Part shown: positions 23,901 to 33,149 of the stretch, piece after piece | Layout of the letters: each line of letters starts with the position of its first letter | Numbering within the stretch: position 1 is the first letter of the stretch | Assembly (NCBI GenBank): GCA_041399085.1 | Contig: JAWKTM010000007.1 | Coordinates: 87,822 to 151,821, forward strand | Length of the DNA: 64,000 nucleotides | DNA from: Pirellulaceae bacterium | GTDB lineage: Bacteria; Planctomycetota; Planctomycetia; Pirellulales; Pirellulaceae | Direction of reading: 5' to 3' | Made by a program: the position numbers and the translations under genes | Notes under the pieces: model-generated | What the model saw: only the letters and a program-made list of their open reading frames with translations | Databases searched by the model: none | Told to the model about the DNA's origin: nothing

Positions 23901-23979
23901 GGAGGGTGTTAGCTAGCGGCCTCATTGGAAATGAGGTGCCCCGTAAGGGGGCTGGTGGGTTCGAGTCCCGTGCCCTCCG
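23901..23979 (+). tRNA. tRNA-Ser(GGA)-like, class II, degenerate D-arm
   Basis: Acceptor GGAGGGT/GCCCTCC, anticodon arm CCTCA-TTGGAAA-TGAGG, long variable hairpin GCCCC-GTAA-GGGGC, T-loop GTTCGAG, followed by a T-run. Confidence 0.45.
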
Positions 23980-24825
23980 CTTTTTCTGATCTTGGTCTCG
24001 TCTTTCGATATCGCTCTAAATCCTGTTGAATCTTCGACTTGAGGCGATATCATTCTGTTGCTGAACGAGGAGACTGCGGTTTCTCCGCCAAACGTTCGAT
24101 TATGAGGCCGATAAGGGTTCGATAAGCCCTTTCTTTTGGTTCGATAAGGGCCGGATGGCACCCTTCGCGTCGAGGTGTTTTGATGCCGACTCGATCTCGC
24201 ACCGTCTGGAAATTGCGCAGTGACGGCCAGTTTGATTGCCGCGTGGGCTGGAAAATCAATGGCCAAGGCAAGCGGGATCAGCACGGTTTCGGCTGCACCG
24301 AGCCGGCGGAAGCTAATGACGGGATCAAGTGCTGCGGCTGCGCGGAAGTGGATGGATCGGAGCATGGAGACGAACGTCAGTTGTTGTTCTTCTATTCATC
24401 GTGCGCTCAAGAACTCGCAACGCTGGAACCCAACCTAACCTTTTCACTGCATCGGCTCGGAGTCGTTGCGGGCGAATCGCGAGTCTCCTCTCGACTTTGA
24501 ATCACCGATGCGATTTTAGACTGCCCACTTGCTCGGTCAGTACCAGGGATTCGCACCCTTGCTCGGTTCATGGGAATAAGTCCGAAAGGTGGCGTCCTAC
24601 TCTCAGTCAACCACAAGCTAATTGAGTGAACCTTTCGCGAGCCTTTTCTGTCTACTATTACAGACACGCGACCGAAGTGGTCGTCAGCAGAACAAGGACA
24701 CCGACAATGATGACTTTACGATCGAGTCTCATATCCGAACAAGAATATCAAGGTAGTTTCGCCAATCAACCGGCGAATACGCCCGCGCTGTGTTTACGCT
24801 TGTGACACTCGACTGAGTATCCACG

Positions 24826-24876
24826 GGATTACCAAAACCCGGTGTCACAAGTGCAAGTGACACCGGGTTTTTTCGT
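24826..24876 (+). terminator. Rho-independent terminator-like hairpin immediately upstream of the tRNA array
   Basis: CCCGGTGTCAC-AAGTGCAA-GTGACACCGGG followed by TTTTTT. Confidence 0.6.
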
Positions 24877-24892
24877 GCCCGGACGACAACTT

Positions 24893-24964
24893 GGGCTGGT
24901 AGCTGAGACGGTATAGCGGCGGTCTGAAGAACCGCAGACGAGGGTTCGAGCACCTCCCGGCCCA
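24893..24964 (+). tRNA. tRNA-Phe(GAA)
   Basis: Acceptor GGGCTGG/CCGGCCC; anticodon loop CTGAAGA; T-arm GAGGG-TTCGAGC. Confidence 0.8.
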
Positions 24965-24992
24965 CTTTGCGCTCAAAGAGCGCGCACAACAT

Positions 24993-25065
24993 GGCCCGTT
25001 CGACTTCGGGTGAGGTCATCGGTCTTTCAAGCCGAGTAGGTTGGGTTCGACTCCCACACGGGCTG
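24993..25065 (+). tRNA. tRNA-Glu(TTC)
   Basis: Acceptor GGCCCGT/ACGGGCT; anticodon loop CTTTCAA; T-loop TTCGACT. Confidence 0.8.
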
Positions 25066-25084
25066 CTTGAAAAAACAACACGAT

Positions 25085-25159
25085 CAGAACGTGGCGAAGC
25101 CTGGTTATCGCGCGTGGTCGGGGGCCACGAGATCGCAGGTTCAAATCCTGCCGTTCTGA
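25085..25159 (+). tRNA. tRNA-Pro(GGG), non-canonical C33
   Basis: Acceptor CAGAACG/CGTTCTG; anticodon arm CGTGG-TCGGGGG-CCACG; T-arm GCAGG-TTCAAAT-CCTGC. Confidence 0.65.
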
Positions 25160-25181
25160 CTGAACGAACAAAACAATTGAT

Positions 25182-25254
25182 CGGGCAGAGGTGCAGATGG
25201 AAGCACGCCTGCTTTGGGAGCAGGAGGGTCTCGGTTCGACTCCGAGGTGCCCGA
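25182..25254 (+). tRNA. tRNA-Pro(TGG)
   Basis: D-stem GTGC/GCAC; anticodon arm CCTGC-TTTGGGA-GCAGG; T-arm CTCGG-TTCGACT-CCGAG. Confidence 0.75.
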
Positions 25255-25264
25255 CTTGAAAAAC

Positions 25265-25336
25265 GGTAGTCGAGGGCTGGTTGCCCATACTCGGCTGATA
25301 ACCGAGTCGCGCTGAGTTCGATTCCCAGGACCACCA
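25265..25336 (+). tRNA. tRNA-Ile(GAT)-like, with A.C mismatches in the acceptor and T stems
   Basis: Anticodon arm CTCGG-CTGATAA-CCGAG; T-loop TTCGATT; atypical D-arm. Confidence 0.5.
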
Positions 25337-25407
25337 CTGAACGCGTAATGAACAGGAGAACAATGATGCACGCTGTCCGCTTGAAACGCATACACCAGAC
25401 CGATCAC

Positions 25408-25480
25408 AGGGTCGTGGTGTAACAGGCAGCACAGCAGACTTTTAATCTGCACGGTGTGGGTTCGATTCCCTCCGGCCCTA
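25408..25480 (+). tRNA. tRNA-Lys(TTT)
   Basis: Acceptor AGGGTCG/CGGCCCT; anticodon arm GCAGA-CTTTTAA-TCTGC; T-loop TTCGATT. Confidence 0.8.
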
Positions 25481-25485
25481 CTCGC

Positions 25486-25558
25486 TGGCGCGTAGCTCAG
25501 CGGTGAGAGCGGCGTCCTTATAAGACGCAGGTCGTGGGTTCAACTCCCATCGCGCCGA
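25486..25558 (+). tRNA. tRNA-Ile(TAT) (UAU anticodon, unusual for bacteria)
   Basis: TAGCTCAGCGGTGAGAGC D-arm; anticodon arm GCGTC-CTTATAA-GACGC; T-arm GTGGG-TTCAACT-CCCAT. Confidence 0.7.
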
Positions 25559-25574
25559 CTGAAGACAACAACAT

Positions 25575-25665
25575 GGGACTAAGGTGTTAGCGGCAGCCGA
25601 CCCGGAAGCCGGGTACCCCGCGGCTCTTAACCGGTGAGGTCAGGGTTCGAGCCCCTGTGGTCCTA
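25575..25665 (+). tRNA. 91-nt tRNA-like gene with canonical acceptor and T-arm but no resolvable anticodon arm
   Basis: Acceptor GGGACTA/TGGTCCT; T-arm CAGGG-TTCGAGC-CCCTG; internal hairpin CCCGG-AAG-CCGGG. Confidence 0.4.
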
Positions 25666-25679
25666 CTGACAATTTGCAA

Positions 25680-25751
25680 GCACTGGTCGTCTAGCGGCGA
25701 AGACTCCGCACCCGTAATGCGGCGACGTCGGTTCGAGTCCGGCCCGGTGCT
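25680..25751 (+). tRNA. tRNA-Thr(CGT), C33
   Basis: Acceptor GCACTGG/CCGGTGC; anticodon arm CCGCA-CCCGTAA-TGCGG; T-loop TTCGAGT. Confidence 0.75.
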
Positions 25752-25783
25752 CTGATGATCTTTGACAATTTGAAACGCAACAA

Positions 25784-25855
25784 GCGCCCATGATGTAAAG
25801 GCCAGCCTACTGCCTTGCCATGGCGGAAGTGCGGGTTCGATTCCCGCTGGGCGCT
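25784..25855 (+). tRNA. tRNA-Gly(GCC), weak D-arm
   Basis: Acceptor GCGCCCA/TGGGCGC; anticodon loop TTGCCAT; T-arm GCGGG-TTCGATT-CCCGC. Confidence 0.65.
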
Positions 25856-25863
25856 CTCAATAT

Positions 25864-25937
25864 CAGGGTGTGGGAAAGCCTGGCATTCCGCGTGCTTCGG
25901 GAGCACGAGATCGTTGGTTCAAATCCAACCATCCTGA
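25864..25937 (+). tRNA. tRNA-Pro(CGG)
   Basis: D-stem GGAA/TTCC; anticodon arm CGTGC-TTCGGGA-GCACG; T-arm GTTGG-TTCAAAT-CCAAC. Confidence 0.85.
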
Positions 25938-25946
25938 CTTAATGAT

Positions 25947-26021
25947 TGCGGTGGGTTCCGTGTTGGTACGGGTAGGCGGCTGTTAACCGCCCTGACGCAG
26001 GTTCGATTCCTGCCGCCGCAG
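25947..26021 (+). tRNA. tRNA-Asn(GTT)
   Basis: Anticodon arm GGCGG-CTGTTAA-CCGCC; T-arm GCAGG-TTCGATT-CCTGC; acceptor TGCGGTG/CGCCGCA. Confidence 0.75.
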
Positions 26022-26038
26022 CTTGTGAACATGAAAAC

Positions 26039-26122
26039 GGAAGGGCAAGCCAATTGGCGATGGCAGCCGCTTCGAAAGCGGTCGAGCGATGAGCCTTGAG
26101 GGTTCGACTCCCTCTCCTTCCG
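26039..26122 (+). tRNA. tRNA-Ser(CGA), class II
   Basis: Acceptor GGAAGGG/TCCTTCC; anticodon loop TTCGAAA; long variable arm; T-arm GAGGG-TTCGACT-CCCTC. Confidence 0.8.
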
Positions 26123-26138
26123 CTGAACGACAAACAAC

Positions 26139-26210
26139 GTGCTCTTGGCCGAGCGGCAAAGGCTCCAGGCTTCCAACCTGGCGAGGCGGGTTCGATTCCC
26201 GCAGAGCACT
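26139..26210 (+). tRNA. tRNA-Gly(TCC)
   Basis: Acceptor GTGCTCT/AGAGCAC; anticodon arm CCAGG-CTTCCAA-CCTGG; T-arm GCGGG-TTCGATT-CCCGC. Confidence 0.85.
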
Positions 26211-26222
26211 CTTCAGATTGAT

Positions 26223-26294
26223 GGGTCGGTAGCTCAGCGGCAGAGCAGGTGCCTGTTAAGTACCAGCGCGCGGGTTCGAGTCCCGCCCGTCCCT
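26223..26294 (+). tRNA. tRNA-Asn(GTT), second copy with a different sequence
   Basis: Anticodon arm GGTGC-CTGTTAA-GTACC; T-arm GCGGG-TTCGAGT-CCCGC; one acceptor mismatch. Confidence 0.7.
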
Positions 26295-26305
26295 CTGTGA
26301 AACGA

Positions 26306-26379
26306 TGCGGGGTAGTCGCTGCTGGTAGTGATGCCTGACTTTGAACCAGGAGGCGTAGGTTCGATTCCTACCCCCGCAG
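26306..26379 (+). tRNA. tRNA-Gln(TTG)
   Basis: Acceptor TGCGGGG/CCCCGCA; anticodon loop CTTTGAA; T-arm GTAGG-TTCGATT-CCTAC. Confidence 0.7.
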
Positions 26380-26433
26380 CTCGAGGCGAACCATGCACGA
26401 ACATGCGTGTCGTTTGAAACACACAACAACCAT

Positions 26434-26536
26434 TGCGGGACAGTCGCTGTTGGTAGTGACGCCTGGCTCCGGGCACCGATCGGCCATAAGGCCGGATTGG
26501 TCGTGGAGGCCGTTGGTTCGATTCCAACTCCCGCAG
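26434..26536 (+). tRNA. 103-nt tRNA-like gene: a paralogue of the Gln tRNA whose anticodon stem-loop is replaced by a ~50-nt insert containing a CGGCC-ATAA-GGCCG hairpin
   Basis: Acceptor TGCGGGA/TCCCGCA; D-arm nearly identical to 26306..26379; T-arm GTTGG-TTCGATT-CCAAC. No 5-bp/7-nt anticodon arm can be drawn. Confidence 0.4.
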
Positions 26537-26546
26537 CTCAAAGGAC

Positions 26547-26631
26547 GGAAGTCATCCGGCTGGATGAGGAGCCTGTTTTGAAAACAGGTGGCGACGCGAG
26601 TCGCTTGTGAGTTCGAGTCTCACGACTTCCG
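26547..26631 (+). tRNA. tRNA-Ser(TGA), class II
   Basis: Acceptor GGAAGTC/GACTTCC; anticodon arm CCTGT-TTTGAAA-ACAGG; variable hairpin GGCGAC-GCGA-GTCGCT; T-arm GTGAG-TTCGAGT-CTCAC. Confidence 0.85.
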
Positions 26632-26642
26632 CTCCGAAAGAT

Positions 26643-26713
26643 GGGCTCATCGTCCAACAGGAAGATGCTGGCGTCGCATGCCAGAGATTCGGGTGCAATT
26701 CCCGATGGGTCCA
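26643..26713 (+). tRNA. tRNA-Ala(CGC)-like (G3.U70 present), reduced D-arm, T-loop TGCAATT
   Basis: Acceptor GGGCTCA/TGGGTCC; anticodon arm CTGGC-GTCGCAT-GCCAG. Confidence 0.55.
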
Positions 26714-26722
26714 CTCAACAAC

Positions 26723-26795
26723 AGTCCTGTGGCCTAGCGGCGAAGGCAGCTCTCTTACAAGGAGCGGATCGGGGGTTCGAGTCCCTCCAGGACTA
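26723..26795 (+). tRNA. tRNA-Val(TAC)
   Basis: Acceptor AGTCCTG/CAGGACT; anticodon arm GCTCT-CTTACAA-GGAGC; T-loop TTCGAGT. Confidence 0.8.
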
Positions 26796-26810
26796 CTTCA
26801 GCAACACGAT

Positions 26811-26903
26811 GCCCAGATACGCCAATCGGCAGAGCGGTCCGGCTCGGGCACCGACCGAAGGTTGGTCGCCGGACGTTTGCAGGTTCGAGTCCTGCTCTGG
26901 GTA
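26811..26903 (+). tRNA. 93-nt tRNA-like gene whose central domain is a 7-bp stem (GTCCGGC/GCCGGAC) enclosing a 24-nt loop
   Basis: Acceptor GCCCAGA/TCTGGGT; T-arm GCAGG-TTCGAGT-CCTGC; no canonical anticodon arm. Confidence 0.4.
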
Positions 26904-26917
26904 CTGACAACACGCAT

Positions 26918-26991
26918 GGCTCGGTAGGCAATTGGCAGACCACTTTGGCTTAGAACCAGAGATGCTGCGGGTTCGAATCCCGCCTGAGCTA
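26918..26991 (+). tRNA. tRNA with Leu anticodon TAG on a short-variable-arm (class I) scaffold
   Basis: Anticodon arm TTTGG-CTTAGAA-CCAGA; T-arm GCGGG-TTCGAAT-CCCGC; discriminator A. Confidence 0.55.
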
Positions 26992-27000
26992 CTTTCATAC

Positions 27001-27073
27001 GTCCTCGTGGAGCAGCGGAGTGCTCGCCTGCCTGTCACGCAGGAGATCGTGGGTTCAAATCCCATCGGGGACG
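27001..27073 (+). tRNA. tRNA-Asp(GTC)
   Basis: D-stem GAGC/GCTC; anticodon arm CCTGC-CTGTCAC-GCAGG; T-arm GTGGG-TTCAAAT-CCCAT; discriminator G. Confidence 0.85.
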
Positions 27074-27079
27074 CTGAGA

Positions 27080-27131
27080 GTCGCCTTTCGCTCCGCGAAA
27101 GCAGCGCTACTTTCGCGGAGCGAAAGGCGAC
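27080..27131. repeat. Perfect 22-bp inverted repeat (GTCGCCTTTCGCTCCGCGAAAG / CTTTCGCGGAGCGAAAGGCGAC) with an 8-nt loop, lying between tRNAs
   Basis: Direct reading of the sequence. Confidence 0.8.
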
Positions 27132-27135
27132 AAAC

Positions 27136-27213
27136 GGCGCGGTACGCAAACCGGTAAAGCGGCGAAGCTCAAAACTTCGTGATCGTCTGTGAGTTCGACT
27201 CCCACCCGTGCTA
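27136..27213 (+). tRNA. tRNA with Leu anticodon CAA, class II-type D-arm but only a 9-nt variable region
   Basis: D-arm CGC-AAACCGGTAAA-GCG; anticodon arm CGAAG-CTCAAAA-CTTCG; T-loop TTCGACT; discriminator A. Confidence 0.6.
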
Positions 27214-27221
27214 CTGAGAGT

Positions 27222-27311
27222 CGTGAGGCGTGAGACTTGGGCATTGGCAGGCCCAAGTGGCTGTAACCCACCCGCTTTCGAGCTTTGCAGGTTCAACTCC
27301 TGCTCGGGCGC
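27222..27311 (+). tRNA. tRNA-Tyr(GTA)-like, class II, with unpaired acceptor stem (probable pseudo-tRNA)
   Basis: D-arm GGGC-ATTGGCAG-GCCC; anticodon GTGG-CTGTAAC-CCAC; 15-nt variable region; T-arm GCAGG-TTCAACT-CCTGC. Confidence 0.4.
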
Positions 27312-27403
27312 ACTGAAAGCATGGCCCTGTTCTTCCTACGGCAGGTGATGCGAGCCTCAAGCCTCCGCGATACGGGTTCAACTCTGTACGGGCTGGCCGA
27401 TAT

Positions 27404-27487
27404 GGCGAGGTGGCGGAACAGGTATACGCGCGCGACGTCAGAACGTCGTCCGCCGGGACATGCGAGTTCGAATCTCGCCTTCGCTAC
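27404..27487 (+). tRNA. tRNA-Leu(CAG), class II with long variable arm; anticodon loop only 6 nt (TCAGAA)
   Basis: Acceptor GGCGAGG/CTTCGCT; D-arm GCG-GAACAGGTATA-CGC (close to E. coli Leu); T-arm GCGAG-TTCGAAT-CTCGC; discriminator A. Confidence 0.7.
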
Positions 27488-27639
27488 TCGAAACACTGCA
27501 GGTGCGACAGGTGTCCAACTGACTTTCATACGGTCGGCGCTCGGCTCGATACCGAGACTCCGCAACTGCGGGTGGGCCAGTGCTCATCGGAGCCTCATGA
27601 GCCTGACTGCCGGGTGCGACCCCCGGACCCGCCACTTAC

Positions 27640-27716
27640 GGCCGAGTACGCAAACAGGCAAAGCGGTCACGTCGAGAGCGTGGCGATTTTGTGGGTTCGA
27701 TGCCCACCTTCGGCCT
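27640..27716 (+). tRNA. tRNA with Leu anticodon GAG, C33, short (8-nt) variable region
   Basis: Acceptor GGCCGAG/TTCGGCC; D-arm CGC-AAACAGGCAAA-GCG; anticodon arm CACG-TCGAGAG-CGTG; T-arm GTGGG-TTCGATG-CCCAC. Confidence 0.55.
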
Positions 27717-27725
27717 TCCACTGAC

Positions 27726-27794
27726 GATCTTGTCCAGCGCAGAAGACGCTCTGGGTGAACCAGGAGATCGATGGTTCGATTCCATCCGCGATCA
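27726..27794 (+). tRNA. Degenerate tRNA-like element (intact T-arm and acceptor, 5-nt anticodon loop)
   Basis: T-arm GATGG-TTCGATT-CCATC; acceptor GATCTTG/CGCGATC with one mismatch. Confidence 0.3.
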
Positions 27795-27892
27795 CTTATG
27801 AATTAATATTCGTAGGTGTTCCGGTAGCACGCGTCCGTGGTAAGGGACGGGAGATTGGGTTCGACTCCCGAACGGACCTCCTCTCAATGAAT

Positions 27893-27964
27893 GGGCTCAT
27901 GCTGATGGAGGCGACTGACCCTTGCAAGGTCGGTGCAGACTGGTTCGACCTGGATCAGGTCCAC
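27893..27964 (+). tRNA. tRNA-Ala(TGC)-like paralogue of 26643..26713, with degenerate T-arm
   Basis: Acceptor GGGCTCA; G3.U70; anticodon arm GACC-CTTGCAA-GGTC. Confidence 0.4.
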
Positions 27965-27979
27965 TTGATTCTGGGCTGA

Positions 27980-28046
27980 TGGTCCAACGGGGAAGACACC
28001 GCCCTGGCGTGGCGGAAATCCGGGCCCGAATTCCCGGTCGGTCCAC
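27980..28046 (+). tRNA. Degenerate tRNA-like element with Ala(GGC)-type anticodon arm
   Basis: CCGCC-CTGGCGT-GGCGG stem-loop plus a CCGGG...CCCGG T-arm-like hairpin; the acceptor cannot be paired. Confidence 0.3.
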
Positions 28047-28063
28047 TGACATTGAAAACATAC

Positions 28064-28147
28064 GGAAGGCAGTTGATATACCCGCCGGGCCGGTTTGCTA
28101 AACCGTGTGACTCCACAAGGTCATGTGGGTCAACCTGATGCCTTCCG
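28064..28147 (+). tRNA. tRNA-Ser(GCT)-like, class II, degenerate T-arm
   Basis: Acceptor GGAAGGC/GCCTTCC; anticodon arm CGGT-TTGCTAA-ACCG; variable hairpin TGAC...GTCA. Confidence 0.45.
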
Positions 28148-28159
28148 GGCTGATGGCCT

Positions 28160-28226
28160 GATGGTGAAATGGAAATCATATCTCGCTTCTAACGAGATGG
28201 TCCAGGTTCAACTCCTGGTCGAGCTT
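28160..28226 (+). tRNA. tRNA-Arg(TCT)-like with an unpaired acceptor
   Basis: Anticodon arm TCTCG-CTTCTAA-CGAGA; T-arm CCAGG-TTCAACT-CCTGG. Confidence 0.4.
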
Positions 28227-28248
28227 CTGATTGAAAACGGAAGGGCAA

Positions 28249-28326
28249 CCCGATTGGCGACGGGACCCGGTTGGAAGCCGGTCGAGCATTTTCTAAACGC
28301 CTTGCGAGTTCGACTCGCTCCGCTGA
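28249..28326 (+). tRNA. Pseudo-tRNA-Ser(GGA), a paralogue of 26039..26122 with a degenerate 3' acceptor and shortened T-loop
   Basis: Shares 5' GAAAACGGAAGGGCAA... with the Ser(CGA) gene; anticodon loop TTGGAAG. Confidence 0.35.
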
Positions 28327-28370
28327 GCAAATGCGTGACGTAACGCGTGAACGGAAAGGACAAGACAATG

Positions 28371-29170
28371 AGCACACTAATTCAAGACGCATTCAAGGCG
28401 ATCGCTATGAAGCTCGTCGAGATTTGCAGGTAACGCTTTCGAGATTGACGTTCGACAAAACGGCGATCGCGAAGTGTACCAGCTCAAGTACCCAACCGGG
28501 GATAACGTCTTGGCTGAGGCGTTCGATGCTTCAAGTCGAAGCAGCGTCACCTGGTGTTGATGTCTCAGGCTGGCGTTTGCCAATTGGTGGACGCTTACTT
28601 GTGCGGCCACGACGAACAACATTTGAAGTCTGTTGCTTCGCTGCCTTCGATCGACAGACAACAACCGTTCGCGCGCGATGGAGGCGTTGAAGCCTGGAGA
28701 CGCAGCGAGAGCAGAAGCGAAAGGGTGTGAAGCACCGACGTCATCGCCGAAAGACAGCGGCGGCGTGCGACAAGGCGAGTGGTTCTTCCTGCCACGACCC
28801 AAGATGCACGCAGGTGAAGCATGACCCGCAACGGCCGATTGGTCCGTGGTGCCGGCAAGCCGCATCGCGTTGAGTGGTTGTATCGTCCTGCGGATCGGGA
28901 CGAGACGTTTGTTCGGGGAGCGGTTTCTGCACCCCGATCACAAGACGATTTACCTGCAAGTATGGCATCGCGTAGTGCAGAACAACGAAGCTGCCAACTC
29001 CTGAGGCACGCCAGTTCACTGCATGTTGTACCTCGATTAAACCTGGGCCGTCGCGCTTCGGTGACGGCGGCCCACATTTATGGTGTCCGTGGTGTACGCG
29101 GTGTAGCACGTCTGCTCGTGAAGCAGAATGTACGGTCCCCTGTCGGTCACCCTTCGGAACAGAGAAAGGA
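28371..29170 (+). pseudogene. Hypothetical gene(s) split across frames (MSTLIQDAFKAIAMKLVEIC... / FEIDVRQNGDREVYQLKYPTGDNVLAEAFD...)
   Basis: Protein-like segments in shifting plus frames; no recognisable family. Confidence 0.25.
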
Positions 29171-29720
29171 ATGGATCATGGTAGCGAAGATGCTCCAGTG
29201 CCCGGGCGCTGGTGCTGGAACCGCAACTGGCAGCCAGTGAACGTGGCCACGGTGTTGCGGGGCTGGTGCTGTTGTGGAACGAGTCCGCGCGGGTCGTCGA
29301 TCCAACGGACTACCAGCTTTACACCTGGGAGGATTGGTCGAAGTTGCGTCCGCGCGACGACGAGCGGTTCATCCAGGCGGTGAAGTTTCGCTGCGTGTGC
29401 CGGAAGTGATTACGCTCGCCGACTACGACCGGGTTGCCATCGGCGGCCGTCTCGTTCAGCCGTCGGAACATTTTCAAGCGTGACCATTACACGTGCCAGT
29501 ACTGCGGTCGGCAGCCCGGCAGCGAGGAACTGACGATCGACCACGTTGTGCCTGTGCTCAGGGCGAGTCGCGGTGGGATCAACTGCGTGCTGGATGGTTT
29601 GACGTGCAACCACCGCAAGGCCGACCGCACGCCACAGCAAGCCAAGCTGCGACTCCGCAACGAGCCAGCACAGCCGAAGTGGAACCTGCTTACACCGCGG
29701 CACGAAGTGCGAATGGAAAG
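29171..29720 (+). pseudogene. HNH endonuclease (classic ~170-aa HNH family) with at least three frameshifts
   Basis: MDHGSEDAPVPGRW.WNRNWQPVNVATV (frame A); LLWNESARVVDPTDYQLYTWEDWSKLRPR...AVKF (frame B); RVPEVITLADYDRVAIGGRLVQPS (frame C); then RRNIFKRDHYTCQYCGR...TIDHVVP...GLTCNHRKADRTP (CxxC...H-N-H motifs). Confidence 0.65.
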
Positions 29721-29823
29721 CTTCATCGAAGTTCGTCAGCGAGGCGTACTGGAACGTCGAGCTGGCGAAGTAATTGACAACGATCGCTCCCTGGTTCCAG
29801 TCGCCGGGAGTTTCTCACTCCAC

Positions 29824-29889
29824 GAGCGTGCTCCTGGGAGAAGCAGCCAGCCTCCAAAACTGGCGGACAGGGTTCGACTCTCGCGCTCT
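29824..29889 (+). other. tRNA-like remnant (acceptor GAGCGTG/CGCGCTC, TTCGACT loop, no proper T-stem)
   Basis: Direct reading; low confidence. Confidence 0.25.
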
Positions 29890-29899
29890 CATGCTTTGC

Positions 29900-30265
29900 G
29901 AGGCTTGAGGTGTGAGGCTTGAGGCTTGAGGGGCGTGTTTTCCTCGGTTTCCTCAGGTCTCAGGACTCAAGCCTCACTTACGCCCTGCGAGTGTGTGATT
30001 TTTTGGACGGCATGGCAGACTCTGGAATCTGCCGGACGAGGTTCGATTCCTCGATAAAGCGTGCTAGGCTTGAGGCGCGAGGCTTGAGACTTGAGGGAAG
30101 AACAGAGAACGATCCTTCCTCGAGCCTCAGGTCTTAAGTCTCAGGACTCATGAGTCGCCGGAGTGTGCCGGATTCGCACGCGAGCCCGCGAAGCTCGAAG
30201 ATCAGGTTCGATTCCTGGCGGCGACACTGAAGAGGCTTGAGGTGTGAGGCTTGAGACTTGAGGGA
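29900..30265. repeat. GAGGCTTGAG repeat family: three ~34-bp forward units (29900-29933, 30065-30097, 30232-30265) alternating with inverted units (29951-29976, 30115-30150), flanking a tRNA half-like module (30014-30052) and a tRNA-like gene
   Basis: Direct reading. The related motif GAGCCTCAAGCCTC also occurs inside the array at ~27345-27365. Confidence 0.7.
30154..30226 (+). tRNA. tRNA-Arg(GCG)-like, C33, embedded in GAGGCTTGAG repeats
   Basis: Perfect acceptor GTCGCCG/CGGCGAC; D-stem GTGT/GCAC; anticodon arm CGAGC-CCGCGAA-GCTCG; T-arm TCAGG-TTCGATT-CCTGG. Confidence 0.55.
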
Positions 30266-30267
30266 GG

Positions 30268-30828
30268 TTAGTTGTCGGGGCGTAACGACCGGATTAGGCC
30301 AACGAGGACGCGAGCGGTCTCGTCGGCCTGGCGGCTGAGATCGGTGGCGACATCGTCCGGCAGATAGCCGAGACGATGGGCGACGGATAGCTGGTACTCG
30401 ACTTCGCGGGCCGAGCCCAATGCTAGGTCGAGAAACCGAACGTAGTCTGCCTGCGTGCTACGAGCGCAGCCTTCGACGATGTTCGAGGCGATGGAAAGAG
30501 CGGCACGGTGCATCTGGGATGTAAGCCCGAACAGCTCTTCTTTCGGGAAGGACTTCGTCGCGGCGTAAACGGCCAGGACCAGCGCGTCAGCAAGCTCGAA
30601 CGCCCGGAGTTTTCGATGATCTCTCATGACGACATTTTCTTCCCGTCTCGTGGTCCTGGGCTTCACGACTCGGAACAATGACGCCAGAGCCAGACGGTGC
30701 AAGGCTGCCTCGGGCGAAGCCAGCGGTTCGACCTCGCCGGCGTCTCTTCCAAGCAAGGTTTCGATGTCGTCTGGACCAGCGGCGCCTCGATCCATCCATT
30801 CGGATTCGGGTCGGTGTGTTCCGGACAT
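30268..30828 (-). CDS. Four-helix-bundle protein (TIGR02436; 23S rRNA IVS-associated family)
   Basis: ELFGLTSQMHRAALSIASNIVEGCAR...DYVRFLDLALGSAREVEYQLSVAHRLGYL. Confidence 0.8.
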   Translation of the reverse strand: MSGTHRPESEWMDRGAAGPDDIETLLGRDAGEVEPLASPEAALHRLALASLFRVVKPRTTRREENVVMRDHRKLRAFELADALVLAVYAATKSFPKEELFGLTSQMHRAALSIASNIVEGCARSTQADYVRFLDLALGSAREVEYQLSVAHRLGYLPDDVATDLSRQADETARVLVGLIRSLRPDN

Positions 30829-30857
30829 GGATTATGACAATGACGATGTCACTACCG

Positions 30858-30930
30858 ACAAGGTTAGCTCAGAGGGTAGAGCACCAGACTATGAATCTGG
30901 AAGTCACGGGTTCGACTCCCGTACCAACAC
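30858..30930 (+). tRNA. tRNA-like gene with intact D-, anticodon- and T-arms but unpaired acceptor stem (possible integration-site remnant or pseudo-tRNA)
   Basis: TAGCTCAGAGGGTAGAGC D-arm; anticodon arm CCAGA-CTATGAA-TCTGG; T-arm ACGGG-TTCGACT-CCCGT; 5' ACAAGGT does not pair with 3' ACCAACA. Confidence 0.4.
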
Positions 30931-31439
30931 CACCAACAGGCTGTATCATGGCAATCGATGCCCGAACCGCCAGGACATCGGCGTTACCCAAGAGCCTGAG
31001 GGAGGCGGGCGTACGTAGGATCGGCTGCCAGTTGGTCGCCATGTAGGCGAGTCTCGAAGAGACTGGCTTACAGAAGTGATCGGCCGGTGGCAGCATGAAC
31101 GAACACCATGTAGTGCGCGGATACCGCCTTTGCCCGCTGTCGGTGGAAGGTTGCCGGTGCTGGTGAGCGACGCCACGGGCTGCGGCCCGACGCGAACTCA
31201 TCAGCCGACGCAGTCGAAAACCGTCAGCGGTGACCGCTCAAGCAGCACTCCGTGCCAGTTCATGTGATCCGCGAACGTTCCGCCTTCCAACGGCGTCTCT
31301 TTCGTTTAACCGCAACGCCAACGGCGTGCGTGTGGAGCGCGGTTGGACGATCGATTGCAGCACACGCGCAGCCCGTTGGGCTTGCGGTTAAACGATGATG
31401 ACACACCACGCCCTTGATAACAGAAAGGAGGGCAATCCA

Positions 31440-32561: not shown

Positions 32562-33149
32562 GTCATTGAGCCCGGGGCCTTTCCACTTTGAAGAGCCGCA
32601 ACCAACTGGCCTCGGTCGGTGTGACTATGGCGGGTTCCTTCAACCAGTGTGGCGTCGGTGGCTCATTGCCACATGAAGAGCTGAACGAGCCCAAATCACA
32701 CTGCCGAGGACCATACCGCCGGCCCGCTTCTCAACTCCTAGACGAATTGCCTGAACCCCTCAGCAGTCAGCGGACTCGGACGGCTTACTCCTTGGAACTG
32801 AATCCAAAAACGATGAACGTCGTCATCCCCAACAGTACAATCGTAAGACCGATCAAATCGAGGACCGTAAATCGGCAGCAGCGGCATTACTATGAGCATC
32901 TCGACAGCCTAGCCGCTAATCGTTGGACGTTTCACGAATGAGTTTCGACGCTGTGGGGAACGGAGTTTCGATTCGGAACAACGACGGATTTTTGCGATAG
33001 CCCAACATTGGCATATACCGTGGTTAAGCCACGATCCAACTTGGGGAATCCGTGCAACTGGCCTAAGCGTGGTTTGCGATATATGCAATCCATGTAGGAA
33101 GCGAAATGCGTTCGTCGAGCCGCGTTGGAATCCAACGCGTTCTTTTTCG

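What the first reader, a model, noticed from the sequence alone, without database searches (positions are those of the whole stretch)
23901..30265. Dense one-strand array of ~35 tRNA and tRNA-like genes with repeats and an HNH endonuclease
About 4.4 kb (24.9-28.3 kb) holds back-to-back tRNA genes in one orientation with 5-60-nt spacers. Isoacceptors are redundant (three Pro, two Asn, four Leu-anticodon genes, several Ser and Ala variants). tRNA-like paralogues decay progressively toward the 3' end of the array. The block is preceded by a terminator hairpin and a Ser-like tRNA. It is followed by a frameshifted HNH endonuclease and GAGGCTTGAG repeat modules. Arrays of this size are rare in bacterial chromosomes and are usually linked to phage or mobile-element DNA. 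The mix of canonical and strongly non-canonical members suggests an acquired tRNA cassette that is decaying.
Basis: seen in the sequence. Interest (0 to 1): 0.85.

Follow-up and report, generated by a model that had tools for sequence, protein, structure and literature searches.

The report
Conserved planctomycete tRNA array, partly decayed
The window holds a real one-strand array of about 40 tRNA and tRNA-like genes; such arrays are already described in Planctomycetes, and this one is a half-decayed copy of an old operon kept beside the same gene in many relatives, apparently switched by a small leader-peptide attenuator.

Summary
ARAGORN tRNA genes on the + strand in 24893-28227 (7.8 per kb) and one at 30154. 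Mapping onto the closest relative gives about 42 tRNA-derived units, 14-15 of them disrupted or degenerate, mostly in the 3' half. The HNH gene (29171-29770) is a frameshifted pseudogene.

The kind is known: tRNA array unit / L-array. 'Degenerate tRNA gene clusters' carrying one canonical tRNA-Ile(UAU) were reported for Planctomycetes (Kim 2016).

The 'recently acquired cassette' reading is not supported. The same array, in the same gene order, with an HNH gene between His and Trp and the same downstream SPFH gene, occurs in 26 of 49 informative Planctomycetota species genomes. The others keep remnants. The deep origin may still be horizontal: the HNH is homologous to the one beside the Anabaena L-array and to HNH genes on other plasmids and in many phages.

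New here:
- A conserved leader: a 32-58-codon ORF whose stop codon lies in an anti-terminator, followed by a strong terminator 20 nt before tRNA-Phe. This predicts induction when translation stalls.
- A ~24-nt hairpin nano-element inserted into tRNA loops.
- A tRNA-like structure and a ~225-nt structured RNA upstream of SPFH.

The parts
24622..24700 (+). Conserved upstream block; candidate promoter of the array (inferred)
   Evidence: Homology with L002, L003 and L004 begins sharply here. GTGAAC...GTCTAnnnT-like motifs recur in the leader alignment of 21 loci. The sigma-70 scan found no strong match.
24707..24805 (+). Leader ORF, 32 codons (MMTLRSSLISEQEYQGSFANQPANTPALCLRL*), SD AAGGA at 24694-24698, stop TGA at 24803-24805
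   Evidence: In 20 of 21 array loci an ATG-started ORF ends at the same TGA. Lengths are 32-58 codons, with at least 8 distinct lengths, all in frame.
24799..24808 (+). Anti-terminator segment CTTGTGACAC; contains the leader stop codon and is complementary to 24842-24851
   Evidence: Duplex dG is -18 to -29 kcal/mol in 21 loci, mean z = -2.8 against shuffles. The core 8 bp pair in >=20 of 23 sequences: 80% of cells paired versus <=42% when slid.
24834..24873 (+). Intrinsic-terminator hairpin (15-bp stem, 8-nt loop, T6), 20 nt before tRNA-Phe
   Evidence: dG -26.6, z = -5.5. Present in all 23 leaders: 97% of cells paired, 3 pairs with double changes, 0 of 500 shuffles reach the score.
24893..24965 (+). 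tRNA-Phe(GAA)
   Evidence: ARAGORN; Rfam 56.7 bits.
24993..25066 (+). tRNA-Glu(UUC)
   Evidence: 39.1 bits; 74/74 identical to L002.
25085..25160 (+). tRNA-Pro(GGG)
   Evidence: 55.9 bits; 76/76 identical to L002.
25182..25255 (+). tRNA-Pro(UGG)
   Evidence: 50.8 bits.
25265..25337 (+). tRNA-Ile(GAU), low-scoring
   Evidence: ARAGORN only; no Rfam hit.
25408..25481 (+). tRNA-Lys(UUU)
   Evidence: 61.7 bits.
25486..25559 (+). tRNA-Ile(UAU), the most canonical member
   Evidence: Highest Rfam score in the window, 64.7 bits. Matches Kim 2016 (PMC4807772, S2 Text).
25575..25666 (+). Lys(CUU) orthologue disrupted by an 18-nt hairpin insert (~25598-25620)
   Evidence: Alignment to the intact 74-nt L002 gene; not called by default ARAGORN.
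25680..25752 (+). tRNA-Thr(CGU)
   Evidence: 51.1 bits.
25784..25856 (+). tRNA-Gly(GCC)
   Evidence: 53.2 bits.
25864..25938 (+). tRNA-Pro(CGG)
   Evidence: 56.0 bits.
25947..26022 (+). tRNA-Asn(GUU) copy 1
   Evidence: ARAGORN; only a sub-threshold Rfam hit.
26039..26123 (+). tRNA-Ser(CGA)
   Evidence: 37.8 bits.
26139..26211 (+). tRNA-Gly(UCC)
   Evidence: 61.6 bits.
26223..26295 (+). tRNA-Asn(GUU) copy 2
   Evidence: 60.8 bits.
26306..26380 (+). tRNA-Gln(UUG)
   Evidence: 39.5 bits.
26435..26537 (+). Gln(CUG)-position tRNA disrupted by the hairpin nano-element (26470-26503)
   Evidence: Position in the consensus gene order.
26541..26630 (+). tRNA-Ser(UGA)
   Evidence: ARAGORN.
26643..26714 (+). 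tRNA-Ala(CGC), with G3:U70
   Evidence: Rfam 44.5 bits; relaxed ARAGORN.
26723..26796 (+). tRNA-Val(UAC)
   Evidence: 63.5 bits.
26811..26904 (+). Leu(UAA)-position tRNA; anticodon loop replaced by the nano-element CGGGCACCGACCGAAGGTTGGTCG (26845-26868). ARAGORN miscalls it Pro(CGG).
26918..26992 (+). tRNA-Leu(UAG), short (75 nt)
   Evidence: 44.4 bits.
27001..27074 (+). tRNA-Asp(GUC)
   Evidence: 59.3 bits.
27080..27131 (.). Perfect 22-bp inverted repeat with an 8-nt loop, inserted between Asp and Leu(CAA); absent in L002
   Evidence: Sequence. Spacer is 61 nt here and 11 nt in L002.
27136..27214 (+). tRNA-Leu(CAA), short (79 nt)
   Evidence: 44.5 bits.
27228..27313 (+). tRNA-Tyr(GUA)
   Evidence: ARAGORN.
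27325..27397 (+). Glu(CUC) remnant
   Evidence: 48/74 identity to the L002 gene; no tRNA call.
27404..27487 (+). Leu(CAG) orthologue with an aberrant anticodon loop (called '???' caga)
   Evidence: Rfam 36.8 bits in E-value mode.
27497..27564 (+). Met(CAU) remnant
   Evidence: 50/71 identity to L002.
27640..27716 (+). tRNA-Leu(GAG), short, low-scoring
   Evidence: ARAGORN only; 63/77 identity to L002.
27723..27795 (+). Val(GAC) remnant
   Evidence: 51/74 identity to L002.
27807..27883 (+). Thr(GGU) orthologue with an 8-nt anticodon loop
27893..27964 (+). Ala(UGC) remnant
27973..28046 (+). tRNA-Ala(GGC)
   Evidence: 42.8 bits.
28064..28150 (+). Ser(GCU) remnant
28155..28227 (+). tRNA-Arg(UCU)
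   Evidence: 54.8 bits.
28239..28324 (+). Ser(GGA) remnant
28545..28800 (+). Remnant, in two frames, of an unknown ~220-aa ORF that lies between Ser(GGA) and His in L002, L028, L046 and L074
   Evidence: tblastn; ORF cluster c20; no Pfam, NCBIfam or PADLOC hit.
29083..29152 (+). His(GUG) remnant
29171..29770 (+). HNH endonuclease pseudogene with several frameshifts
   Evidence: Pfam HNH/HNH_5 on one fragment; three-frame reading. Intact single-HSP homologues at the same array position, between His (or Arg(UCU)) and Trp, in about two dozen loci, 22 of them near full length.
29822..29894 (+). Trp(CCA) remnant
29900..30264 (.). Three heptamer-repeat (GAGGCTT)n hairpin modules (29900-29975, 30065-30150, 30232-30264) interleaved with tRNA units
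29971..30061 (+). Degenerate tRNA-like unit at the position of Thr(UGU)
   Evidence: Relaxed ARAGORN; consensus gene order.
30154..30227 (+). tRNA-Arg(GCG), low-scoring
   Evidence: ARAGORN; Rfam 23.7 bits.
30268..30624 (-). Four-helix-bundle protein (23S rRNA IVS protein / Avd-like), inserted between Arg(GCG) and the Cys remnant
   Evidence: Pfam PF05635, 1.2e-32; TIGR02436. Also found in L003, L004, L006, L007 and L079.
30667..30746 (+). tRNA-Cys(GCA) remnant
   Evidence: Aligns to L002 Cys, 41/80 identity.
30858..30929 (+). Terminal tRNA-like structure (not a decoding tRNA)
   Evidence: Rfam 54.2 bits, covering model positions 5-66 only. 60 copies; acceptor stem 3-5 bp; 27 different 'anticodons'.
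31073..31299 (+). Conserved ~225-nt structured-RNA candidate between the tRNA-like structure and SPFH
   Evidence: nhmmer finds it in at least 65 of 80 loci. Long-range helix with compensatory changes. No Rfam hit.
31437..32561 (+). SPFH/Band-7 gene always linked downstream; C-terminal ~25 codons frameshifted in the window
   Evidence: Pfam Band_7, 3e-34; found in 80 loci; C-terminus comparison.
32562..32600 (+). Conserved terminator hairpin that ends the shared module
   Evidence: Boundary alignment.

Best explanation
The region is this genome's copy of an old accessory tRNA operon, of the 'tRNA array unit' / 'L-array' type, found widely in Planctomycetota.

The module runs from about 24622 to 32600. 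In order it contains: an upstream block, a leader ORF, an attenuator terminator, about 40 co-oriented tRNA genes in a conserved order (Phe-Glu-Pro-Pro-Ile-Lys-Ile(UAU)-Lys-Thr-Gly-Pro-Asn-Ser-Gly-...-His-[HNH]-Trp-Thr-Arg-Arg-Cys), a tRNA-like structure, a structured RNA and an SPFH gene.

Shown:
- The array and its gene order.
- Its conservation at the same locus in about half of the related species.
- The embedded HNH gene and its homology to the HNH beside the Anabaena L-array.
- The divergence of array tRNAs from stand-alone tRNAs.
- The lineage-specific decay of the 3' half in this window.

Inferred:
- The array supplies supernumerary tRNAs, including tRNA-Ile(UAU) for AUA codons, and is dispensable.
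- It is normally held silent by the terminator 20 nt before tRNA-Phe.
- When ribosomes translate the 32-codon leader smoothly to its stop codon, which lies inside the anti-terminator, they mask the anti-terminator and transcription stops.
- When ribosomes stall in the leader (tRNA shortage, translation inhibitors), the anti-terminator pairs with the terminator's 5' arm and RNA polymerase reads into the array.

In this lineage selection has relaxed. About 14-15 tRNA units, an unknown ORF, the HNH gene, tRNA-Cys and the SPFH C-terminus carry disabling changes. Three of the tRNA units were hit by a small hairpin insert.
For: - Array reality and density.
- Same locus and gene order in relatives. 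Of 49 loci with at least 6 kb upstream, 21 have >=20 tRNAs and 5 have 10-19. They include Adhaeretor mobilis HG15A2, Bythopirellula polymerisocia Pla144 and Lacipirellula limnantheis I41.
- HNH intact at the same array position in about two dozen loci. It is 33% identical to the Anabaena delta-plasmid HNH, which sits directly before that plasmid's 24-tRNA trn operon.
- Prior descriptions of the kind: PMC4807772, PMC8421152, PMC4758250.
- Ile(UAU) is the top-scoring tRNA.
- Array tRNAs versus stand-alone tRNAs with the same anticodon in the same locus: 51-70% identity.
- Decay in the window: per-gene mapping, HNH frames, ORF remnant, SPFH C-terminus.
- Attenuator: terminator, anti-terminator, leader ORF frame conservation. 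The leader is retained even where the array is deleted, in L003, L004 and L010.
Against: - No expression data exist: transcription, CCA addition, charging and attenuation are all untested.
- The anti-terminator helix is mostly invariant, so covariation support is weak.
- The leader's excess of A/T-ending codons (0.42 versus 0.16 in SPFH) equals what non-coding sequence would show. There is no run of one regulatory codon as in the trp and his leaders. The link between an ATA codon in the leader and the presence of Ile(UAU) in the array is weak.
- The rest of this genome was not available, so redundancy is inferred from the decay and from relatives that lack the array.
- HNH and SPFH similarities are only moderately congruent (r = 0.66; L011 versus L021/L025 are 91% in HNH but 76-77% in SPFH). 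The window's flanks differ from those of its nearest relatives. Inheritance is therefore not purely vertical.
Confidence: 0.72

Rival explanations
1. Recently acquired phage or mobile-element tRNA cassette that is now decaying.
For: - HNH homologues are common in tRNA-rich phages and on plasmids carrying arrays.
- Homology to the nearest relatives ends sharply at 24622 and 32585, and the flanks differ.
- One IMG/VR 'viral' contig (L083) carries the same array.
- L-arrays are held to spread by horizontal transfer (PMC8421152).
Against: - The same array, order, HNH position, leader and SPFH neighbour occur across dozens of species-level genomes from several families.
- No integrase, phage structural or conjugation genes lie within +/-10 kb.
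- GC content is not deviant: 0.54-0.60 against 0.51-0.65 across the window.
- The right edge of the module is simply the SPFH terminator.
Confidence: 0.1
2. Selfish module kept at one locus by HNH homing. The endonuclease cuts array-less alleles, for example in the conserved tRNA-Cys / tRNA-like / SPFH region. Repair then copies the array in from a donor, which would give a patchy but locus-fixed distribution.
For: - Presence and absence alternate at the same locus.
- The HNH is conserved inside the arrays.
- Some pairs show HNH more similar than SPFH.
- Precedent: T4 SegB promotes inheritance of its tRNA region (cited in PMC8421152; PMC13096335).
Against: - Arrays persist without the HNH in L050, L061 and L062.
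- Relatives with few tRNAs keep the leader and scattered array genes, which indicates internal deletions rather than empty sites.
- No target site was identified.
- The HNH domain is generic.
Confidence: 0.15
3. Decoy or back-up tRNA set against tRNA-cleaving toxins and anticodon nucleases from phage-defence or competitor systems. The array would be useful because its isodecoders differ in sequence from the housekeeping tRNAs. This concerns benefit and is compatible with the main explanation.
For: - Array tRNAs are 51-70% identical to stand-alone tRNAs with the same anticodon.
- Literature on phage tRNAs evading tRNA-targeting defences, and on mycobacterial arrays as putative anti-defence (PMC11555353, PMC12803027).
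- RtcB RNA ligase lies next to the module in 4 loci.
Against: - No toxin or defence gene is consistently linked.
- PADLOC gives only generic HNH hits.
- There is no experimental support in Planctomycetes.
Confidence: 0.15
4. It is the main housekeeping tRNA operon of the organism.
For: It covers most amino acids. Its 5' genes are almost identical between the window and L002, while the spacers differ.
Against: - About a third of the units are damaged here. This includes the only Trp, His, Cys and Met candidates in the array.
- About half of the relatives lack the array.
- Kim 2016 locates the canonical Trp gene in a different conserved cluster.
Confidence: 0.03

Closest known systems
Degenerate tRNA gene clusters of Planctomycetes (Kim et al. 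2016, PLoS One, PMC4807772, S2 Text)
   Same: Same phylum. Large clusters with many partially degraded, low-scoring tRNAs. A single, highly canonical tRNA-Ile(UAU) inside the cluster. Segmental duplicates occur, as with L079/L080 here.
   Different: [quoted passage not shown] Here the gene order, the embedded HNH, the leader and the SPFH neighbour are conserved across families. The leader attenuator and the hairpin insert were not described there, as far as the held text shows.
L-arrays, e.g. the Anabaena sp. PCC 7120 trn operon (Santamaria-Gomez et al. 2021, PMC8421152)
   Same: - A long, non-periodic, co-oriented array of supernumerary tRNAs.
- A homologous HNH gene adjacent (33% identity).
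- Short Leu tRNAs without the long extra arm in both.
- RtcB in the neighbourhood of some loci.
- Predicted induction by impaired translation.
   Different: The gene order differs. The Anabaena array is plasmid-borne with the HNH upstream; here the array is chromosomal with the HNH embedded. Anabaena regulation works through 9-nt promoter repeats; here a leader-ORF plus terminator/anti-terminator is predicted. The distribution here looks largely vertical within the phylum.
tRNA array units (Tran et al. 2016, PMC4758250; Morgado and Vicente 2018, PMC5966550)
   Same: It meets the formal definition of at least 20 tRNA genes at a density of at least 2 per kb. Planctomycetes are listed among the phyla with arrays.
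   Different: Those surveys are descriptive. They report no regulatory leader and no locus conservation in Planctomycetes.
Leader-peptide transcription attenuators (trp, his, leu and pheA operons)
   Same: A short SD-preceded ORF, an intrinsic terminator, and an alternative anti-terminator that overlaps the end of the ORF.
   Different: It controls tRNA genes rather than biosynthetic enzymes. There is no run of one cognate codon and no obvious 1:2 pause hairpin. It is untested.
Phage tRNA clusters with homing endonucleases (T4 SegB region; mycobacteriophage and cyanophage arrays)
   Same: Dense tRNA genes interspersed with an HNH-type nuclease; HNH homologues occur in such phages.
   Different: No phage genes are present here. 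The locus is chromosomal and conserved across species.

Membership tests
tRNA array unit (Tran 2016) | At least 20 tRNA genes in one region | tested here: met
   26 ARAGORN genes in 24893-28227; about 42 units including degenerate ones.
tRNA array unit (Tran 2016) | Density of at least 2 tRNA genes per kb | tested here: met
   26 genes in 3.33 kb, or 7.8 per kb.
L-array (Santamaria-Gomez 2021) | Long array of same-direction genes with short intergenic distances, compatible with one operon | tested here: met
   All genes are on the + strand. Spacers are mostly 5-130 nt. A single leader and terminator lie upstream.
L-array (Santamaria-Gomez 2021) | Non-periodic composition | tested here: met
   The gene order shows no repeating unit.
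L-array (Santamaria-Gomez 2021) | Contributes supernumerary, redundant tRNAs to the host | tested here: inconclusive
   The whole genome is not available. Redundancy is inferred from the decayed Trp, His, Cys and Met units, from relatives without an array and from divergent stand-alone copies in 4 loci.
L-array (Santamaria-Gomez 2021) | Dissemination by horizontal transfer, with patchy distribution among close relatives | tested here: inconclusive
   Presence is patchy (26 of 49), but always at the same locus with the same order. HNH/SPFH congruence is partial.
L-array (Santamaria-Gomez 2021) | Linked HNH homing-endonuclease gene, as seen in most cyanobacterial L-arrays | tested here: met
   HNH pseudogene at 29171-29770. 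Homologue of the Anabaena plasmid HNH, E = 1e-20.
L-array (Santamaria-Gomez 2021) | Cryptic expression, induced by translational stress | not testable with these tools
   Only predicted, from the attenuator architecture.
Planctomycete degenerate tRNA cluster (Kim 2016) | Many members score lower than canonical tRNAs | tested here: met
   Only 21 of about 42 units reach the Rfam gathering score. The 3' units are sub-threshold or undetected.
Planctomycete degenerate tRNA cluster (Kim 2016) | A single canonical tRNA-Ile(UAU) within the cluster | tested here: met
   25486-25559; 64.7 bits, the best score in the window.
Phage or prophage tRNA cluster | Embedded among phage genes, or bounded by an integrase and att repeats | tested here: not met
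   Flanking ORFs are planctomycete chromosomal types (DUF7133/cytochrome c, BBP7, NtrC, histidine kinase), with no integrase.
Leader-peptide transcription attenuator | Short translated ORF with a ribosome-binding site upstream of the regulated genes | tested here: met
   The ORF and SD-like motif are present in 20 of 21 loci, and the frame is kept through at least 8 length variants. Translation itself was not tested.
Leader-peptide transcription attenuator | Intrinsic terminator plus a mutually exclusive anti-terminator overlapping the ORF end | tested here: met
Leader-peptide transcription attenuator | Regulatory codons whose decoding rate is sensed | tested here: inconclusive
   No codon run. 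ATA occurs in 14 of 20 leaders, and A/T-ending codons are common but match non-coding composition.
HNH homing endonuclease | Intact HNH catalytic motif | tested here: not met
   The window copy is frameshifted. Intact in relatives: Pfam HNH 1e-15 for L002.
HNH homing endonuclease | Site-specific DNA cleavage that promotes its own inheritance | not testable with these tools
   No target site could be inferred.

The most novel reading that the evidence does not exclude
The planctomycete tRNA arrays are self-regulating reserve tRNA operons. A conserved leader peptide, rich in A/U-ending codons and often containing AUA, is read by the translating ribosome as a gauge of decoding capacity. Stalling frees an anti-terminator that contains the leader's stop codon, and about 40 tRNA genes switch on; these often include tRNA-Ile(UAU), which Kim 2016 reports as occurring only in these clusters. 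This would be a ribosome-mediated attenuator controlling tRNA genes. It would also give a mechanistic basis for the 'cryptic array induced by translational stress' phenotype. The module is ancient and locus-fixed across Pirellulales and Planctomycetales.
Probability: 0.45. Interest if true: 0.75.

Novelty: new member of a known kind. Interest (0 to 1): 0.5.

Why it matters
What long tRNA arrays are for, and how they are kept silent yet inducible, is still open. So far it has been studied experimentally in very few organisms, mainly Anabaena and Acidithiobacillus.

This locus shows that in Planctomycetota the array is not a sporadic import. It is a conserved operon with a fixed gene order, an embedded HNH gene and a conserved leader. 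The leader has the anatomy of a ribosome-sensing attenuator.

Three cultured strains carry it: Adhaeretor mobilis, Bythopirellula polymerisocia and Lacipirellula limnantheis. The model can therefore be tested directly.

The hairpin nano-element matters for annotation. It inflates or corrupts tRNA calls, producing 88-95-nt 'tRNAs', false Pro(CGG) genes and four-base anticodons. It may also be an example of a very small mobile element that targets hairpin tips.

Tried and rejected
- **Exact-protein look-up.** A look-up of the NtrC-like neighbour to find the source genome returned nothing on record.
- **Suppressor or frameshift tRNA at 27404.** I considered that '???(CAGA)' is a frameshift-suppressor or Sec-like tRNA. 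Rejected: it is the damaged orthologue of an ordinary Leu(CAG) gene in L002.
- **Bacterial tRNA introns.** I considered that the 88-95-nt tRNAs carry introns of the archaeal BHB type. Rejected: the insert lies in the D-loop, the anticodon loop or the variable/T region, in either orientation, and replaces neighbouring bases. The fold shows no 3-4-3 bulge-helix-bulge. The same element occurs far from any tRNA.
- **Array-specific hairpin element.** I first noted the element as array-specific. I withdrew this after the metagenome scan, where most copies lie in contigs without tRNAs.
- **Rare-codon selection in the leader.** The A/T-ending codon excess equals non-coding composition, so it is not used as evidence.
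- **SPFH or HNH as a known defence system.** PADLOC gives only generic HNH matches and nothing for SPFH.
- **Sigma-70 promoter scan.** It found no convincing promoter for the array, so the promoter assignment stays inferred.
- **Elhai 2008 paper.** This paper on small dispersed repeats could not be read. The comparison rests on my memory of it and on its citation in PMC3116915.

Full report

Yes. ARAGORN with default settings finds 27 tRNA genes in the 64-kb window, all on the + strand. 26 lie in 24893-28227 and one at 30154-30227. Rfam at gathering score gives 21 tRNA matches. These add an Ala(CGC) gene at 26643-26713 and a truncated tRNA-like element at 30862-30925. E-value-mode Rfam and relaxed ARAGORN reveal about ten weaker tRNA-like units.

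The T-loop motif GGTTCRANNC occurs about 30 times on the + strand between 23958 and 30909. It occurs six times on the - strand of the entire window.

Aligning 24600-31450 to the nearest related array (L002, 36 genes) assigns every stretch to an orthologous gene. This gives about 42 tRNA-derived units.
- In the undisrupted 5' genes, identity to L002 is 92-100% and many genes score 50-65 bits in Rfam.
- After 27313 most units are 65-85% identical and score <=45 bits or escape detection; Arg(UCU) still scores 54.8 bits.

The HNH gene (29171-29770) can only be read by switching frames several times. The GAGGCTTGAG modules are heptamer-repeat hairpins confined to 29900-30264.

**2. What the surroundings say**

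The flanking ORFs are ordinary planctomycete chromosomal genes: DUF7133/HEAT/cytochrome c, BBP7, universal stress protein, NtrC-type regulator and histidine kinase. There is no integrase and no phage gene. GC content is unremarkable.

Immediately downstream of the array lie:
- a four-helix-bundle '23S IVS protein' gene on the - strand (30268-30624);
- an SPFH/Band-7 gene (31437-32561).

**3. Relatives**

I used the SPFH protein as an anchor in one genome per species of GTDB. This returned 80 Planctomycetota loci at 69-97% amino-acid identity. tRNA scans of these loci gave the key result. The same array lies directly upstream of SPFH, on the same strand and in the same order, in many of them.

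The consensus order is: Phe-Glu(UUC)-Pro-Pro-Ile(GAU)-Lys(UUU)-Ile(UAU)-Lys(CUU)-Thr(CGU)-Gly(GCC)-Pro-Asn-Ser(CGA)-Gly(UCC)-Gln-Gln-Ser-Val(UAC)-Leu-Leu-Asp-Leu(CAA)-Tyr-Glu(CUC)-Leu(CAG)-Met-Leu(GAG)-Val(GAC)-Thr(GGU)-Ala-Ala-Ser(GCU)-Arg(UCU)-Ser(GGA)-His-[~700 bp]-Trp-Thr(UGU)-Arg...Arg(GCG)-Cys.

Of 49 loci with at least 6 kb of upstream sequence:
- 21 carry at least 20 tRNAs;
- 5 carry 10-19;
- 23 carry fewer than 10, usually tRNA-Cys and/or the terminal tRNA-like element, sometimes with a few array genes.

Array-bearing genomes include the cultured strains Adhaeretor mobilis HG15A2, Bythopirellula polymerisocia Pla144 and Lacipirellula limnantheis I41. One contig carries two copies of array plus SPFH about 50 kb apart (L079/L080).

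The ~700-bp gap holds an intact HNH gene in about two dozen loci, 58-82% identical to the reconstructed window protein. Where His abuts Trp (L050, L061, L062) the HNH gene is absent.

All-against-all clustering of flanking ORFs shows that only SPFH and HNH are widely shared. Other neighbours are shared only between close relatives. This is compatible with the generally low synteny of these genomes.

**4. Acquired or ancestral?**

The array was not recently imported into this chromosome. Relatives with few tRNAs keep the leader and scattered array genes (L003, L004, L010), which points to internal deletions in place.

Three observations keep some horizontal component alive:
1. DNA homology between the window and its nearest relatives (SPFH 93% nt) is confined to 24622-32585. 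The left edge is sharp in three comparisons, and the right edge coincides with the SPFH terminator.
2. HNH and SPFH pairwise identities correlate only moderately (Pearson 0.66). There are outliers such as L011 versus L021/L025, at 91% in HNH but 76-77% in SPFH.
3. The HNH family is shared with arrays elsewhere. It is 33% identical (E = 1e-20) to the HNH on the Anabaena PCC 7120 delta plasmid, which lies directly before that plasmid's tRNA operon of 24 ARAGORN genes. Homologous HNH genes also occur on Nostoc, Acaryochloris, Mycobacterium and Tsukamurella plasmids and in many phages; whether tRNA genes lie next to them was not checked.

Both the Anabaena array and these arrays have unusually short Leu tRNAs (74-79 nt) that lack the long extra arm. 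An ancient horizontal origin, followed by long residence and occasional homologous replacement, fits best.

**5. Prior knowledge**

Three sources already describe the kind:
- Tran et al. 2016 define tRNA array units and list Planctomycetes among the phyla that have them.
- Santamaria-Gomez et al. 2021 define L-arrays, list Planctomycetes, note the conserved HNH neighbour and RtcB, and show induction of the Anabaena array by translation inhibitors.
- Kim et al. [quoted passage not shown]

The window fits this exactly: Ile(UAU) at 25486-25559 has the best Rfam score (64.7 bits). The kind is therefore known.

**6. How it probably works: the leader**

The 270 nt before tRNA-Phe are conserved in all 21 arrays that begin with Phe. 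They contain three elements.

- **(a) A strong terminator.** A hairpin with a T-tract ends about 20 nt before tRNA-Phe in the window (24834-24873; dG -26.6, z = -5.5); in other arrays the spacing to tRNA-Phe varies. In 23 sequences, 97% of cells pair, three pairs show double changes, and no shuffle out of 500 reaches the score.
- **(b) An anti-terminator.** An upstream motif, GCGCTTGTGACAC, is complementary to the terminator's 5' arm. Duplex energies are -18 to -29 kcal/mol, with mean z = -2.8. The core 8 bp pair in at least 20 of 23 sequences: 80% of cells pair, against at most 42% when the partner is slid. There is little covariation because the helix hardly varies.
- **(c) A leader ORF.** It is preceded by a Shine-Dalgarno-like motif and starts at a conserved ATG. 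It ends at the TGA inside that motif in 20 of 21 loci. Its length ranges from 32 to 58 codons, with at least eight different lengths, all in frame. Eight independent in-frame length changes would occur by chance with a probability of roughly (1/3)^8.

This is the anatomy of a ribosome-mediated attenuator:
- A ribosome that reaches the stop codon covers the anti-terminator. The terminator forms and the array stays silent.
- A ribosome stalled earlier leaves the anti-terminator free, and transcription reads through.

That would yield induction under translational stress, the phenotype shown experimentally for the Anabaena L-array, but by a different mechanism.

Caveats:
- The leader's A/T-ending codon fraction (0.42, against 0.16 in SPFH) is what non-coding DNA would give.
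- There is no run of a single codon.
- ATA occurs in 14 of 20 leaders, but this correlates only weakly with the presence of the Ile(UAU) gene.
- Nothing has been tested experimentally.
- I found no paper describing such a leader before a tRNA array. The searchable library is incomplete.

**7. Decay in this lineage**

Compared with L002, the window has lost or damaged:
- the tRNA units for Lys(CUU), Gln(CUG), Leu(UAA), Glu(CUC), Leu(CAG), Met, Val(GAC), Thr(GGU), Ala(UGC), Ser(GCU), Ser(GGA), His, Trp, the Thr(UGU)-position unit and Cys;
- an unknown ~220-aa ORF (remnant at 28545-28800);
- the HNH gene;
- the last ~25 codons of SPFH.

The 2008-aa and 1193-aa ORFs elsewhere in the window are intact, so these changes are unlikely to be assembly errors.

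L002 has its own damage: four 5' genes carry the hairpin insert. The array therefore appears dispensable and is eroding independently in each lineage. Array tRNAs are only 51-70% identical to stand-alone tRNAs with the same anticodon in the same loci (n = 4).

**8. Things found on the way**

- **(i) A ~24-nt hairpin element.** Its consensus is CGGGCACCGAC-(GNA-type loop)-GTTGGTCG, and the inner stem shows compensatory changes. It sits inside tRNA genes in either orientation, in the D-loop, the anticodon loop or the variable/T region. The set of affected genes differs between the window and L002. It explains the 88-95-nt 'tRNAs', the false Pro(CGG) call and the four-base anticodons. A scan of metagenomes found at least 86 true copies. 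Most lie in contigs without tRNAs, typically at the apex of pre-existing inverted repeats, and some are nested or tandem. The element therefore targets hairpin tips in general. From memory, it resembles the cyanobacterial small dispersed repeats of Elhai et al. 2008, which are also associated with heptamer repeats.
- **(ii) A terminal tRNA-like structure.** It lies at 30858-30929 and is conserved 420-600 nt upstream of SPFH in 60 sequences (59 loci plus the window), with or without an array. The D-arm, anticodon stem and T-arm are nearly invariant. The acceptor stem is only 3-5 bp. There are 27 different 'anticodons', and U33 is present in only 31 of 51 copies. It is not a decoding tRNA. It may be a processing or structural signal.
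- **(iii) A ~225-nt conserved RNA.** It lies at 31073-31299, between that element and SPFH, in at least 65 loci. A long-range helix is supported by compensatory changes, and there is no Rfam match.
- **(iv) RtcB** lies next to the module in four loci.

**9. Verdict**

The finding is real. It is a good example of a known kind of locus, and in this genome it is partly a relic. The 'acquired, decaying cassette' reading is right about the decay and wrong about recent acquisition. The interest lies in the conserved architecture, above all the predicted leader-peptide attenuator, which makes the regulation of cryptic tRNA arrays testable in cultured Planctomycetes.

Noticed in passing
window 26845-26868, 26470-26503, ~25598-25620; L002 2404-2428, 2740-2764, 3800-3826, 4630-4654; many metagenome loci (L127-L246): A ~24-nt hairpin nano-element, CGGGCACCGAC-(GNA loop)-GTTGGTCG, is inserted in either orientation into tRNA D-, anticodon- and variable/T-loops. 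The affected genes differ between the window and its 96%-identical relative. In metagenomes it mostly sits at the tips of other inverted repeats in contigs without tRNAs, sometimes nested or tandem. It looks like a very small mobile element that targets hairpin apices, and it corrupts tRNA annotation.
   Followed up: partly
window 30858-30929; 59 of 80 related loci, 420-600 nt upstream of SPFH: A conserved tRNA-like structure. The D-arm, anticodon stem and T-arm are invariant, the acceptor stem is only 3-5 bp, and the anticodon loop is hypervariable (27 different triplets). It is present whether or not the array is present. It is not a decoding tRNA and may be an RNase P/Z processing or structural signal for the SPFH transcript.
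   Followed up: partly
window 31073-31299; at least 65 of 80 related loci: A ~225-nt conserved non-coding block between the tRNA-like structure and the SPFH start. A long-range helix (5' GCAGCAyG..ACrCC with 3' CCGyG..CrTGTGAT) is supported by compensatory changes. No Rfam family matches. It is a candidate new structured leader or small RNA.
   Followed up: partly
window 29900-29975, 30065-30150, 30232-30264 (also 27355); L158, L072, L145: Tandem heptamer repeats (GAGGCTT/GAGGTGT)n form long imperfect hairpins between the last tRNA units. The same heptamers occur next to the nano-hairpin element in an unrelated metagenome contig.
   Followed up: partly
window 27080-27131: A perfect 22-bp inverted repeat with an 8-nt loop is inserted between tRNA-Asp and tRNA-Leu(CAA). 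It is absent in L002, where the spacer is 11 nt. Most decayed genes lie downstream of it, so it might act as a transcriptional block. There is no T-tract.
   Followed up: no
window 32470-32561: The C-terminal ~25 codons of the SPFH gene are out of frame relative to L001, L002 and L003 (…AGQPERRPWRKGLAERGQPVVTLCPV* versus …AGHLNVVLGEKGLAERVVNLL*). This suggests the whole module is under relaxed selection in this genome.
   Followed up: partly
window 23901-23980: A class-II Ser(GGA)-like tRNA with a 7-bp acceptor stem and a long variable arm but an aberrant D-arm. Default ARAGORN does not call it, and Rfam is sub-threshold. It lies about 640 nt outside the module shared with relatives.
   Followed up: partly
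window, 3' side of most array tRNAs (e.g. 24966, 25067, 25161, 25560): No CCA is encoded. The bases after the discriminator are most often CTG/CTT/CTC followed by A-rich sequence (CTGA, CTTGAAAA). This is a recurrent trailer motif of unknown meaning.
   Followed up: no
L021 11174-12343, L025, L050, L056: An RtcB RNA ligase gene lies within 1-6 kb of the SPFH gene in four loci. This echoes the RtcB linkage reported for cyanobacterial L-arrays.
   Followed up: no
L079 and L080 (same contig, ~50 kb apart); L004 11970-12707: The whole module (array + HNH + SPFH) is duplicated in one genome. In another, a partial second copy of the tRNA-like region plus the SPFH start lies downstream of SPFH.
   Followed up: no
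L083 (IMGVR_UViG_3300007072_000340, 94 kb): A contig classified as viral in IMG/VR carries the same planctomycete array in the same gene order. It is either a misclassified chromosomal fragment or a prophage-adjacent region. The rest of the contig was not examined.
   Followed up: no
window 26918-26992, 27136-27214, 27640-27716; L081 (Anabaena) 4326-4862: The array tRNA-Leu genes are 74-79 nt and lack the long extra arm typical of bacterial tRNA-Leu, both here and in the Anabaena array. A stand-alone Leu(GAG) in L047 is 87 nt.
   Followed up: no
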